Shown in pieces: positions 11,301-14,300 of a stretch of DNA of 64,000 nucleotides; within the stretch, counting starts at the first letter, position 1; every line of letters starts with the position of its first letter. A program made the position numbers and the translations under genes. Source of the DNA: the human T2T-CHM13v2.0 reference genome, Homo sapiens; assembly GCF_009914755.1 (NCBI RefSeq), contig NC_060941.1; one strand, 5' to 3'. The notes under the pieces are model-generated. The model was not told the DNA's origin. It saw only the letters and a list, made by a program, of their open reading frames with translations, and searched no databases.

Positions 11301-14300
11301 GGCCCCACACCTTTCTGGTTATTTCTTCTCTATTCACAGGTCCTTCCTTAACTGCTGGATCCTCTGGGTTAAGTCCTTGGCCCTAAATTTACTCTAATTC
11401 ATTCCCAGGGTGGCCTTGCCTTGGGAGCATCACAAAAACATCTACTTCAAACTTCCCTTCCACATGAATGACTCTTCCATCCCTCTCTCAACTTTTTCCC
11501 AGTCTTTTTCCCAGTCTGCAGACTCAAAGGCTAACTGCCTGTGAAGAATCTACCAGAAGGTTCCACAGTCAATCTGTCAACTTAGTATGTATGAAGCTGA
11601 GTTCACCATTTTCCCTGTGCCCTGATAGGGAACACCCTATCAAAAGTCTGTTCCTACTCCTGTATTTACTATTCTAGAGCAGGGAGAGGGAAGGCTAGCA
11701 AATTGTGGCCTACAGGTCAAATCTAGCCTGCCAACTATTTTTGTAAATAAAGTTTTATTGGAACACAGCCAGACCCATTAATGGCTGTATCATCTATGGC
11801 TGCTCTTGAACTACAAAGGCAGAATTGAGTAGTTGAGACAGAGACCATATGGCCCAAAAAGCCAAAAATACTTATTATATGGCCATTTATAGGAAAAGCT
11901 TGCTGGCCTCAGTCCTGAAGTAGCTGTGCTTGTGGCTGCGGCTGCTAACTGGCTGCGCACAGGTAAGGCCAGGCAAGGCGGGAGCCACTCAACATCTCCG
12001 CTTCATTTCCTTGGCTCTTCCCCTGCCATCCTCGTCCTGCTACCTGGGACTCCGGGATGTGCCCTTTCGACCCTTTCCTAACATCTTTGCTCCTTTCCGC
12101 GTACTTGAAACCCCATGGCTCAACCTCTTCTGTTCTATCCCTCTTCAGCTCTCCCAGCTGGACCTCAGCTTTTCCAATCCCAAATCCTCCTCTACTTGTT
12201 GGATTTTTCCTTGGAGTCTGTCTCTCCTACCCAGAGCATTTCCTTCTCAGCCTGCTCCCTCTCCTCCTAGGCTAGGTCCTCTCTCCAGTTCTCCCGCCTT
12301 CTCTGCCCCCCGGTCTAGGTCTCTCCCGCTGACTGGTTAGCCTGAGTCACCACTAGCTCCCCTCAGTCTCATCTCTCTCTCAGGCTCTCTACTCCTTTCA
12401 GCCTTGGTCCTCTGCCCTCCCGTCTGGGTGTCTGAGTTGTGGGGAATTGAAGTGCTTCCTATTGCTATCCCTCCTGCCACACAGGTTGAAGTGCTTCCTG
12501 GGCACAGAGCTGACCCGGAGGTGTCACTAGCCCTAGTCTCCACACACTAACACAGCTGACCCGCTGGGCCCTCTTTCCTAGCAATCTAAGGATCATCATT
12601 CACTCTTCTAACTTACTCTCACATCAAATTGGTCACTCTTACATCAAATTGGTTCTACTGCCTCTGCTTCCTAAATATCTATTGAATCCATTCACTCCAT
12701 CCTCTCCTTTCTACTGCCTATAAAACTGCCATTATTTCAAGCCTTCAAAATCTGGCCTCCTGCCTACTTCTCCAGTGTTGTCTCCTGCCTTGCCCCACAG
12801 AGCTCTCACGCTGCAGCCATGAAGAGCTGCTTCCCATTCCTCAGACTTGCTGCATTCCATATGAGCAGCATCTTGCCTTGTTCATCCTCTAGTCCCAGCA
12901 CCTAACCCAGGTTTTATAAGGTAGACACTATAAAAAAGAACACATCATGTACTATGTGCATGACTTTCTACGTACGACTCTCATATGTAGTCAGATGAAA
13001 CTTTCATACACCGTTCCCTCTGCCTAGTGGGACTTCCTAAATACCCTCCCCTGCCCCACAAACGTCTAAACCTCAAGACTGTACCCAAGGTCAGCTGCTT
13101 TGAGAAGGCATCCTAATTCTCGAAGGCTGAAGTGGTGCTCCCCTCTCTATCTCTCACAGTGGTCCATGCAGACCTCTACCATGATCATAAGTCAAGATGA
13201 CAAGTTTACATCTGTTTGTCTTCCATGCTAAACTGTAGATTTGATGGCATTTCCTGTGCTCGGTACCCAGTTGGGGAAGAGGATCAGGTCATAAGCAATT
13301 GCCAGATTTTAGGATATTTGTTGTGCCTTATCTGCTGAATAAGCTAATTACCTTTGTATTCTGAATGATGTCAACCATTTATTGTTTAGTGCACACTGCA
13401 GGGAGGCCAAAGAAGGCTATATTTCTGCTTTCTTGAAACATAGTCTGGTTGAAGAGACCAGGTATCCAAGGAAAATTAATACAAATACAAAAGAAGAGTA
13501 AGTTCATGAGAAATATGGCAGAAGAAAAGATCACCGGGTCCACATGATTTGATTTGGGAACAGTTCAAAGAAGGTAAACCAGGGAAGATTTCTTTTTTTG
13601 TGGGGGAAAGGGTTTCACTCTCACCCAGTTTGGAGTGCAGTGATACAAAAAAATTAGCCAGGTATGATCATGGCTCACTGCAGCCTCAACTTCCCAGGCT
13701 CAGGTGATCCTCTCACCTCAGCCTCCCAGATAGCTGGGACTACAGGTTCACAACACTACACCTGGGCTAATTTCTGTATTTTTTTGTAGAGATGGTTTTC
13801 ACCACGTTGCCCAGGTCGGAAGGGAGGATTTTAATAGAAAAGGCATTTCCAGTTTGAAGAAAGAATAGAATGAATGTGGGAACAGCCAGAGTCTGGGTTC
13901 TGGGGATAAAAATGGGGACATGTGTGTAGCATACAGGCAGTCTAGCTGGGGCAAAGTGTTCATAATAGGGAGATAGGAGACAGGGGAAGAAAGGTTTGAG
14001 CAACAGGCTAATGAGGTCCTGTAGGTAACTGAAATCATAAAAGGTCACAGTTAGAAAAAGAGTAATGTTTTAGGAAGACTATCTGTAAAATAAAGATACA
14101 ATTGGAAGAGAAGAGAAGGAACCCCAGGATCCTACCTTCTCCTTTAGTTTTGTCTGTAGAAAGAGAGTCAGGCTCTGTAGTTGCTCAGTCAGCAGCCCTA
14201 GCTTTTGAGAGTACTGCCGTGTTTTCTCCAGATCTTGCTCCTGGTTATCTGCTATGGTGCTGGCCAGTTTAGCCCTGAAATAAGGAACAGGGAAGATGAC

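What the first reader, a model, noticed from the sequence alone, without database searches (positions are those of the whole stretch)
11921..12582. 659-bp inverted copy of ALDOC exon 1/intron 1 inside SPAG5 intron 15: a built-in antisense or long-dsRNA module
Seen: 11922-12580 is the reverse complement of 6810-7466 (3' 41 nt of ALDOC exon 1, its donor CAG|gtaagg, and ~615 nt of intron 1) at ~99% identity, 4455 bp from its source. It is unique non-TE sequence, unspliced, with no poly(A), so it is not a retrocopy. Inference: both genes are on the minus strand, so SPAG5 pre-mRNA and the excised intron 15 carry ~650 nt complementary to nascent ALDOC RNA across its first 5' splice site. SPAG5 read-through past its poly(A) site (~0.7 kb from the ALDOC TSS) would fold a ~650-bp hairpin looping out SPAG5 exons 16-24. 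That could be an ADAR, Dicer or PKR substrate, or link mitotic SPAG5 expression to ALDOC splicing.
Basis: partly seen in the sequence, partly recalled or inferred. Interest (0 to 1): 0.85.

Follow-up and report, generated by a model that had tools for sequence, protein, structure and literature searches.

The report
Inverted ALDOC fragment inside SPAG5 intron
A 659-base piece of the start of the ALDOC gene has been copied, backwards, into an intron of the neighbouring SPAG5 gene; the copy is real and young, but it looks like a scar of DNA repair, and nothing yet shows that it does anything.

Summary
Window 11922-12580 (659 nt) is the reverse complement of 6810-7466 (657 nt). The arms differ by 4 substitutions and two 1-nt indels, so 653 of 659 columns match. 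The genome holds only these two copies.

The copy has no target-site duplication, no A or T run and no junction microhomology. I read it as a captured patch from break repair or a template switch, not a retrocopy. Divergence gives point estimates of about 1-6 My, with an upper limit near 15 My. Gene conversion would make these minimum ages.

The two RNAs could form a 653-bp duplex. However, one arm lies deep in an intron. A canonical AATAAA poly(A) site separates the arms. No annotated transcript joins them. No paper I could search mentions the locus.

Most likely this is a neutral young inverted duplication with untested dsRNA and recombination potential. I could not check apes, other human assemblies or RNA data. 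Interest is moderate to low.

The parts
6810..7466 (-). Source arm: the last 41 nt of the non-coding ALDOC exon 1 (7426-7466), the first 5' splice site (CAG|GTAAGG, exon end 7426) and the first 616 nt of intron 1 (6810-7425).
   Evidence: with the annotation. Exon 1 and the promoter continue without a break past 7466, so this is the original.
11922..12580 (+). Inverted copy in SPAG5 intron 15. It reads ALDOC-sense on the + strand, with the exon part at 11922-11962 and the copied donor GT at 11963-11964. In SPAG5 pre-mRNA (minus strand) it is therefore antisense to ALDOC.
   Evidence: The genome holds only two copies.
7467..11921 (.). The 4455-nt spacer. It holds the first 54 nt of ALDOC exon 1 with the promoter, 678 nt of intergenic DNA, SPAG5 exons 24 to 16 and 1176 nt of intron 15.
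11921..11922 (.). Left junction. It is blunt: 0 nt are shared between the acceptor flank and the source flank.
   Evidence: An old dispersed repeat ends about 11 nt to the left, near 11910.
12580..12581 (.). Right junction. It is blunt, with no A or T run and no target-site duplication: the two 40-nt flanks share no 5-mer.
   Evidence: The first 13 nt of the right flank occur nowhere else in the window.
8199..8218 (-). SPAG5 3' end. AATAAA at 8218-8213 lies 14 nt upstream of the annotated cleavage site at 8199. This site cuts the two arms onto separate RNAs.

Best explanation
This is a young, small, inverted intrachromosomal duplication. A 657-659-nt piece of the ALDOC 5' end (the exon 1/intron 1 junction) was copied without loss of the donor and sealed into a break in SPAG5 intron 15, 4.4 kb away, in the opposite orientation. 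Both junctions are blunt, which fits capture of a patch by end joining during double-strand-break repair. The patch could have been DNA, or cDNA made from nascent unspliced ALDOC RNA. A replication template switch to the nearby opposite strand is the alternative route. The high identity of the arms is explained by youth, possibly helped by gene conversion between them, and not by selection. In normal expression the two arms sit on different RNAs. One arm is in a spliced-out SPAG5 intron. The other is at the 5' end of ALDOC pre-mRNA, beyond an efficient SPAG5 poly(A) site. The most likely present-day effect is therefore none, or at most low-level nuclear duplex formation and editing. Shown: the anatomy, the copy number, the junction features, the divergence and the thermodynamic pairing potential. 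Inferred: the mechanism of origin, the age in years and neutrality.
For: The arms are 99.1% identical over 659 columns with sharp ends. Only 2 copies exist in the genome, and the tool's ability to see dispersed repeats was confirmed on the left flank. The donor is intact and continuous with the rest of exon 1 and the promoter. There is no target-site duplication, no A or T run and 0 nt of microhomology at either junction. These are the features the TSIP review gives for class 2 templated insertions: no TSD and no poly(A), with donors intact and enriched in transcribed sequence (PMC5110952, abstract and sections 5, 6 and 9). Divergence of 3-4 substitution events in 655 sites gives 2.3-6.1 My as point estimates. 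The widest confidence interval is 0.5-15.6 My. All 15 CpGs are intact in both arms. The copy is more than 1.1 kb from either splice site of intron 15. A canonical AATAAA precedes the SPAG5 cleavage site that lies between the arms. No RefSeq transcript spans both arms. No Rfam family matches in the arms at gathering score. Long, highly paired inverted repeats do exist in the human genome without known function: 2,018 were predicted, and of the 58 overlapping protein-coding exons all but one pair an exon with an intron (preprint PMC11838218, section 10).
Against: Neutrality is assumed, not measured, because no population, ape or RNA data could be reached. All five mutational events fall in the distal 234 nt, and the 423 nt next to the exon are identical. 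With 5 uniformly placed events, the probability of an event-free run of 423 nt or more is 0.034. This could mean a recent gene-conversion tract or constraint. It loses significance (P = 0.38) if the 6880-6917 cluster counts as one event. Long near-perfect inverted repeats are reported to be depleted even from pre-mRNAs (PMC7006430, passages). Survival of this one in two expressed genes is therefore mildly unexpected, unless it is simply too young to have been purged. Blunt junctions cannot be fully read without the empty ancestral site. The 4.4-kb distance is unlike the 'distant' donors described for templated sequence insertions.
Confidence: 0.7

Rival explanations
1. One reading: a working antisense or long-dsRNA module. 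SPAG5 intron 15 RNA pairs in trans with nascent ALDOC RNA across its first 5' splice site. Alternatively, SPAG5 read-through RNA folds into a roughly 650-bp hairpin. The duplex is then edited by ADAR, cut by Dicer or sensed by PKR/MDA5, and it couples ALDOC output to SPAG5 transcription.
For: The strand logic is right. The predicted intermolecular duplex has 653 bp and -1485 kcal/mol, against -209.5 and -183.8 kcal/mol for the arms folded alone. In a hypothetical 5771-nt unprocessed RNA, 653 of 659 arm bases pair with the other arm. The two genes are 678 nt apart, so their nascent RNAs are close. The duplex would cover the exon 1 donor. Structures longer than 300 bp with more than 96% pairing are the class discussed as MDA5 ligands (PMC11838218 section 10; PMC7006430).
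Against: There is no transcript, editing, duplex or small-RNA evidence in anything I could search. A cis hairpin needs two failures at once: retention of intron 15, and failed cleavage at a site with a canonical AATAAA. Introns are nuclear and short-lived (established knowledge). SPAG5 is a proliferation and mitosis gene and ALDOC is mainly a brain gene, so co-expression is limited (recalled, not tested). ALDOC exon 1 is non-coding. The identity of the arms is explained by youth alone.
Confidence: 0.08
2. Its main consequence is at the DNA level. The arms act as a recombination substrate, with gene conversion between them and occasional homologous recombination that inverts the 4455-nt spacer. 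Such an inversion would cut SPAG5 after exon 15 and detach ALDOC exons 2-9 from their promoter. It would join the ALDOC promoter and exon 1 to the copied donor on the + strand.
For: The arms are inverted, 657-659 nt long and 99.1% identical, with a 423-nt perfect tract, and they lie 4.4 kb apart. Inverted repeats mediate recurrent human inversions, with exchange points in stretches of high identity, such as a 782-bp region at 99.9% (PMC3961182, passages). The uneven spread of differences is compatible with a conversion tract.
Against: No inversion is reported here. SPAG5 and ALDOC are absent from the main text of three inversion papers, but one of them took its additional inverted-repeat candidates from segmental duplications of 1 kb or more, so this pair would be missed. 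In CHM13 both genes are intact and collinear. The arms are short for efficient ectopic exchange. An inverted allele would inactivate two genes and should be rare.
Confidence: 0.15
3. The copy arose from RNA. A nascent, unspliced ALDOC 5' transcript was reverse-transcribed and used as a patch at a break in SPAG5 intron 15, giving a class 2 templated sequence insertion. This rivals only the DNA-level origin and is silent on function.
For: The copy lies wholly inside the ALDOC transcription unit, starts 54 nt downstream of the annotated start and contains intron sequence. It has no TSD, no poly(A) and blunt junctions, and the donor is intact. These are the class 2 features in PMC5110952.
Against: The 5' end does not coincide with the annotated start at 7520. 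An RNA patch has no obvious reason to land 4.4 kb from its gene, whereas nearness and inverted orientation are typical of local template switching (established knowledge). The review itself leaves template switching and break-induced repair open.
Confidence: 0.3
4. The copy is an assembly artefact, or a private variant of the CHM13 genome.
For: Only one assembly could be read here. No tool reaches GRCh38, pangenomes or reads.
Against: The arms differ at 6 columns. A mis-joined or duplicated read stretch, or a very recent event, should be identical. Both junctions lie in ordinary unique or old-repeat sequence. From recall only, not from a call, the GRCh38 span of SPAG5 is about the same length as the 21,452 nt seen here. 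If so, the copy is also in GRCh38.
Confidence: 0.04

Closest known systems
Class 2 templated sequence insertions (TSI/TSIP; Onozawa and Aplan review, PMC5110952: abstract and sections 5, 6 and 9 read)
   Same: A unique, non-repeat stretch is copied from an intact, transcribed donor and sealed into another site without a target-site duplication, poly(A) or L1 cleavage motif.
   Different: The donor is only 4.4 kb away on the same chromosome, and the copy is inverted relative to it. The described cases are templated from distant regions. Whether this copy is polymorphic is unknown. An RNA origin is not shown.
Replication-based template switching (FoSTeS/MMBIR) producing local inverted duplications. 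The name and features are recalled, not taken from a call.
   Same: The duplicate is short-range and inverted, and the donor is retained. Four of the five mutational events lie within 38 nt (6880-6917), 70-107 nt from the distal end of the arm. This could be error-prone synthesis.
   Different: There are 0 nt of microhomology at either junction as far as can be judged without the empty site. No further complexity is present apart from a 20-bp tandem duplication 35 nt away.
Segmental duplications and inverted repeats that mediate inversions (PMC3961182, PMC13629690, PMC6748972: passages read)
   Same: A high-identity inverted pair flanks a short unique segment.
   Different: At 659 nt the pair is below the 1-kb threshold for segmental duplications used to build such catalogues. 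No inversion is known here.
Long, highly paired intramolecular dsRNA candidates (inverted Alu or LINE pairs; dsRNAscan preprint PMC11838218; Barak et al. PMC7006430)
   Same: The pair exceeds 300 bp and 96% pairing, lies within a 10-kb span, and has one arm in an exon-bearing region and the other in an intron. The preprint puts 57 of its 58 coding-exon cases in that exon-to-intron category.
   Different: The arms are unique sequence, not repeats. They belong to two separate transcription units divided by a poly(A) site, so a within-gene scan like that of Barak et al. would not see the pair. Its presence in the preprint's tables could not be checked because supplements are closed.
Trans natural antisense from inverted gene fragments or pseudogenes, such as pseudogene-derived endo-siRNA precursors in mouse oocytes and the Lymnaea NOS pseudogene antisense (recalled, not from a call)
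   Same: An inverted fragment of one gene, transcribed within another transcript, is complementary to the parent gene's RNA.
   Different: The complementary part is intronic and targets the 5'UTR exon/intron junction rather than mature mRNA. No small RNAs or regulation are shown.

Membership tests
Processed retrocopy / L1-mediated insertion (class 1 TSIP) | Poly(A) tail at the 3' end of the insert | tested here: not met
   The longest A run around either junction is 2 nt and the longest T run is 3 nt.
Processed retrocopy / L1-mediated insertion (class 1 TSIP) | Target-site duplication of at least 5 bp | tested here: not met
   The two 40-nt flanks share no 5-mer.
Processed retrocopy / L1-mediated insertion (class 1 TSIP) | Introns removed | tested here: not met
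   The copy holds 616 nt of intron 1, contiguous with 41 nt of exon 1.
Class 2 templated sequence insertion | Donor intact, and insert lacking TSD and poly(A) | tested here: met
   The donor is continuous with the rest of exon 1 and the promoter.
Class 2 templated sequence insertion | End-joining marks at the junctions (microdeletion, microhomology, non-templated bases) | tested here: inconclusive
   0 nt of overlap at both junctions. Deletion or filler bases cannot be judged without the empty ancestral site.
Class 2 templated sequence insertion | Template from a distant genomic region, derived from RNA | tested here: not met
   The donor is 4455 nt away on the same chromosome. RNA derivation cannot be tested here.
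Segmental duplication | At least 1 kb long and at least 90% identical | tested here: not met
   Identity is 99.1%, but the length is only 657-659 nt. The threshold is as stated in PMC13629690.
Transposable element copy | Many dispersed copies in the genome | tested here: not met
   The whole CHM13 genome holds 2 places. As a positive control, the left flank gives 1930 first-look candidates.
Template-switch (MMBIR/FoSTeS) inverted duplication | Microhomology at the switch points | tested here: inconclusive
   None is seen, but the empty site is unavailable.
Template-switch (MMBIR/FoSTeS) inverted duplication | Local donor, inverted orientation, donor retained | tested here: met
Intramolecular dsRNA / ADAR substrate (as for inverted Alu pairs) | Both arms present on one RNA molecule | tested here: not met
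   No RefSeq transcript holds both arms. A poly(A) site with AATAAA lies between them. Read-through RNA was not testable.
Intramolecular dsRNA / ADAR substrate (as for inverted Alu pairs) | Clustered A-to-I editing on the arms | not testable with these tools
   No RNA data are available. The searches found only unrelated sites (SPAG5-AS1 and an ALDOC coding site).
Trans natural antisense pair | Long complementarity between RNAs of two loci | tested here: met
   653 bp at -1485 kcal/mol.
Trans natural antisense pair | Co-expression and an effect on the target RNA | not testable with these tools
   No expression or perturbation data are available.

The most novel reading that the evidence does not exclude
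The copy is specific to the human or African-ape lineage and becomes active only when processing fails. Stress, viral infection or tumour states can cause read-through past the SPAG5 poly(A) site together with intron retention. One RNA would then carry both arms and snap into a near-perfect 653-bp unique-sequence hairpin. That is far longer and better paired than the Alu pairs in this window. Such a hairpin would be a strong ADAR1/PKR/MDA5 ligand. In trans, the SPAG5 intron would mask the first ALDOC 5' splice site in cells that express both genes. This would be a lineage-specific, condition-dependent dsRNA source that ties a mitotic gene to a glycolytic gene.
Probability: 0.08. Interest if true: 0.65.

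Novelty: new member of a known kind. Interest (0 to 1): 0.3.

Why it matters
If the copy is inert, it is a clean, datable example of a sub-kilobase inverted templated insertion with blunt junctions. It lies below the 1-kb cut-off of segmental-duplication catalogues. It is also a practical warning: reads from ALDOC exon 1/intron 1 and from SPAG5 intron 15 cross-map at 99% identity. The six paralogous differences could therefore be mistaken for variants or for RNA-DNA differences.

If the arms do pair in vivo, this would be one of very few long, near-perfect, non-repeat dsRNAs that involve an exon of an expressed human gene. The literature treats that class as rare and selected against. It could be tested by a simple deletion.

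If the arms recombine, the resulting inversion would inactivate two genes at once.

Tried and rejected
Inversion footprint. I considered that the arms are the inverted duplications left by an inversion made with staggered breaks. I rejected this because the 4455-nt segment is collinear with the rest of both genes. ALDOC exon 1 runs unbroken across 7466/7467, and SPAG5 exons 16-24 have the same orientation as exons 1-15.

Reverse direction of copying (SPAG5 intron as the source). I rejected this for the same reason. Also, the SPAG5 arm sits between an old dispersed repeat and unrelated unique sequence.

Transposable element or structured-RNA gene in the arms. I rejected both. The only Rfam rows inside the arms are a mirrored sub-threshold sR38 match (18.6 bits against a gathering score of 50, E = 0.76).

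Extension of the homology. The aligner matched TGATG beyond the right end after a 13-nt gap. I could not tell this from chance. The 13-mer occurs nowhere else in the window, so it is not a locally templated filler.

Literature. SPAG5 + ALDOC + 'inverted repeat' gave 0 papers. SPAG5 + ALDOC + dsRNA gave 0. The joined gene names gave 0. SPAG5 + ALDOC + intron + duplication gave 1 unrelated mouse QTL paper, seen only in the listing. SPAG5 + A-to-I + intron gave 4; I read passages of one, which concerns only SPAG5-AS1. ALDOC + A-to-I gave 4; I read passages of one, which concerns a coding site. An attempt to find GRCh37 coordinates for SPAG5, to measure intron 15 in another assembly, gave 0.

Ape orthologues, GRCh38, pangenomes, sequencing reads, editing databases and the supplementary tables were all out of reach. 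That includes Table S5 of PMC11838218, which may list this pair.

Not done. I did not run my own scan of neighbouring megabases for a base rate and relied on the published counts. The names MER5-like and MIR-like that I had in mind for the flanks are recalled. Only the left flank's repeat nature was tested.
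Full report
OBSERVATION. The repeat finder gives arms 6918-7466/11922-12470 (549 nt) and 6810-6903/12487-12580 (94 nt), with 4455 nt between the inner ends. A global alignment joins them into one repeat of 657 nt against 659 nt. It has four substitutions (6880, 6909 and the adjacent 7042-7043) and two 1-nt indels, so 653 of 659 columns match. The '100%' printed is rounded. 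Similarity ends abruptly on both sides.

The RefSeq table and the sequence confirm the anatomy. The source arm is the last 41 nt of the non-coding ALDOC exon 1, the donor CAG|GTAAGG and 616 nt of intron 1. The copy lies in SPAG5 intron 15 (3390 nt), 1555 nt after exon 15 and 1176 nt before exon 16 in the direction of transcription. The SPAG5 cleavage site is 678 nt from the ALDOC start.

NOT CHANCE, NOT A MOBILE ELEMENT. A search of the whole CHM13 genome with the copy returns exactly two places. The same tool gives 1930 first-look candidates for the 282 nt left of the copy. Forty of these were scored, and the 39 other than the query itself are 75-84% identical. So the left flank is an old dispersed repeat that ends about 11 nt before the junction, and the tool would have seen a transposable element in the arms. 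The right flank is unique at this sensitivity. One search found 43 inverted pairs of 200 nt or more in the window and listed the 25 longest. The other 24 listed are at most 297 nt long and at most 87% complementary. No Rfam family reaches its gathering score between 6000 and 14200.

WHICH ARM IS THE ORIGINAL. ALDOC exon 1 and its promoter continue without a break beyond 7466. The SPAG5 arm is bounded by unrelated sequence. ALDOC is therefore the donor. An origin as the footprint of a staggered-break inversion is excluded, because the spacer is collinear with both genes.

HOW IT AROSE (inferred). The insert is unspliced. It has no A or T run longer than 3 nt at either end. The 40-nt flanks share no 5-mer, so there is no target-site duplication. 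No base is shared between acceptor and donor flanks at either junction. That rules out L1-mediated retrocopying.

These features match the class 2 templated sequence insertions of the TSIP review: donor intact, donors enriched in transcribed sequence, no TSD and no poly(A), and sealing by end joining (PMC5110952, abstract and sections 5, 6 and 9). Unlike those cases, the donor here is only 4.4 kb away and the copy is inverted. That is what a local replication template switch would give (recalled knowledge). The review itself leaves that route open. Without an empty orthologous site I cannot choose between a DNA patch, a cDNA patch from nascent ALDOC RNA and a template switch.

Two small features near the right-hand end of the copy may be by-products of error-prone repair. 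One is a cluster of four differences within 38 nt (source 6880-6917, copy 12471-12510), 71-110 nt inside the right junction. The other is a 20-bp tandem duplication at 12615-12653, 35 nt outside that junction. Either may also be unrelated.

AGE (inferred). Three to four substitution events in 655 sites give 2.3-6.1 My, depending on the rate used. The widest Poisson limits are 0.5-15.6 My. If the cluster arose at birth, the point estimate drops to 0.8-1.5 My. The rates are recalled standard values. All 15 CpGs survive in both arms, which becomes unlikely beyond about 15-25 My. Gene conversion between the arms would make all of these minimum ages. The event-free 423 nt next to the exon is mildly unexpected if the five events are independent (P = 0.034). 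It is not unexpected if the cluster counts as one event (P = 0.38). The copy could therefore be human-specific or shared with African apes. This is the most interesting open fact, and I could not reach it.

WHAT IT COULD DO. The two RNA arms are predicted to form a 653-bp duplex of -1485 kcal/mol, against -209.5 and -183.8 kcal/mol for the arms folded alone. In a hypothetical unprocessed 5771-nt RNA, 653 of 659 arm bases pair with the other arm and none pairs elsewhere.

The conditions for that RNA are demanding. Intron 15 must remain unspliced while nine further exons are transcribed. Cleavage must also fail at a site preceded by a canonical AATAAA 14 nt upstream. RefSeq lists no read-through transcript. 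Pairing in trans needs both genes to be active in the same nucleus. It also involves a short-lived intron and the 5'UTR end of ALDOC only, because the ALDOC coding sequence starts in exon 2.

CONTEXT FROM PAPERS. A genome-wide scan with 10-kb windows predicted 2,018 human inverted pairs longer than 300 bp with more than 96% pairing. Most are LINE pairs and 88% are intergenic. Fifty-eight overlap protein-coding exons, and all but one of those pair an exon with an intron (preprint PMC11838218, sections 10 and 20). This pair spans 5771 nt and fits those criteria, so it is probably in their table. Supplements are closed, and the main text names neither gene.

Barak et al. report depletion of long, near-perfect duplexes even from pre-mRNAs (PMC7006430, passages). 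They scanned within genes, so a pair split between two genes is outside their design. One inversion catalogue drew its additional inverted-repeat candidates from segmental duplications of 1 kb or more (PMC13629690). Neither gene appears in the main text of three inversion papers. Nothing I could search describes this locus.

VERDICT. The functional part is an untested possibility with several strikes against it. The best-supported reading is a young, probably neutral, sub-kilobase inverted templated insertion (confidence about 0.7). It has two latent properties worth a cheap check: dsRNA formation when SPAG5 3' processing and splicing fail, and gene conversion or inversion between the arms. 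It is a new member of known kinds. Interest is 0.3. That would rise if the copy proves human-specific and the arms prove to be edited.

LIMITS. Only one assembly was read. There were no ape genomes, population data, RNA data or supplementary tables. My statement that GRCh38 has a SPAG5 span of similar length is recall, not a result.

Noticed in passing
window 12615-12653: A 20-bp tandem duplication (2.0 copies, 94% matches, unit ACTCTCACATCAAATTGGTC) lies 35 nt to the right of the copy's right junction. It could be a by-product of the same repair event, or it could be unrelated.
   Followed up: partly
window 6810-7466 and 11922-12580: The duplicated segment has a strong strand asymmetry. It is 65.8% purine on the + strand of the source, above the 99th percentile (64.2%) of 657-nt tiles in the window. 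ALDOC RNA is therefore pyrimidine-rich here and the SPAG5 intron copy is purine-rich. Whether this made the donor break-prone was not examined.
   Followed up: no
window 12448-12460 and 12487-12499 (source about 6890-6942): A 13-nt direct repeat (TGAAGTGCTTCCT) occurs twice inside each arm. The copy's extra base at 12487 is the first base of the second repeat, and the differences at 12471 and 12480 lie between the two repeats. This suggests slippage or one complex event.
   Followed up: partly
window 11693-11910: An old dispersed repeat gives 1930 first-look genomic candidates, with scored copies 75-84% identical. It ends about 11 nt before the left junction. From recall it looks like a MER5-type DNA transposon, but the family was not tested. 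It is not listed among the masked repeats of the annotation file.
   Followed up: partly
window 7453-7692 and 7743-7922: RefSeq functional elements lie at the ALDOC promoter: a 'silent region' (silencer) and an 'active region' (enhancer). The silencer overlaps the source arm by only 14 nt (7453-7466), so the copy carries almost none of it.
   Followed up: no
window 6590-6645: Gnomon models XM_054315543.1 and XM_054315544.1 add an extra 5'UTR exon inside ALDOC intron 1, 164 nt beyond the distal end of the source arm. This exon is not duplicated.
   Followed up: no
window 13602-13769: Sub-threshold Rfam matches to Metazoa_SRP (28.1 bits against a gathering score of 70) and mir-1268 (30.4 against 83) fall on the minus strand. 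They coincide with the only masked repeat in 3000-15000 (13620-13753). This is probably an Alu fragment in SPAG5 intron 15.
   Followed up: no
window 29758-48101 (SPAG5-AS1): A brain RNA-editing atlas lists SPAG5-AS1 among nine genes with more than 30% lower editing in temporal cortex than in cerebellum (PMC8640037, passage). This is unrelated to the inverted copy and probably reflects Alu pairs further along the window.
   Followed up: no
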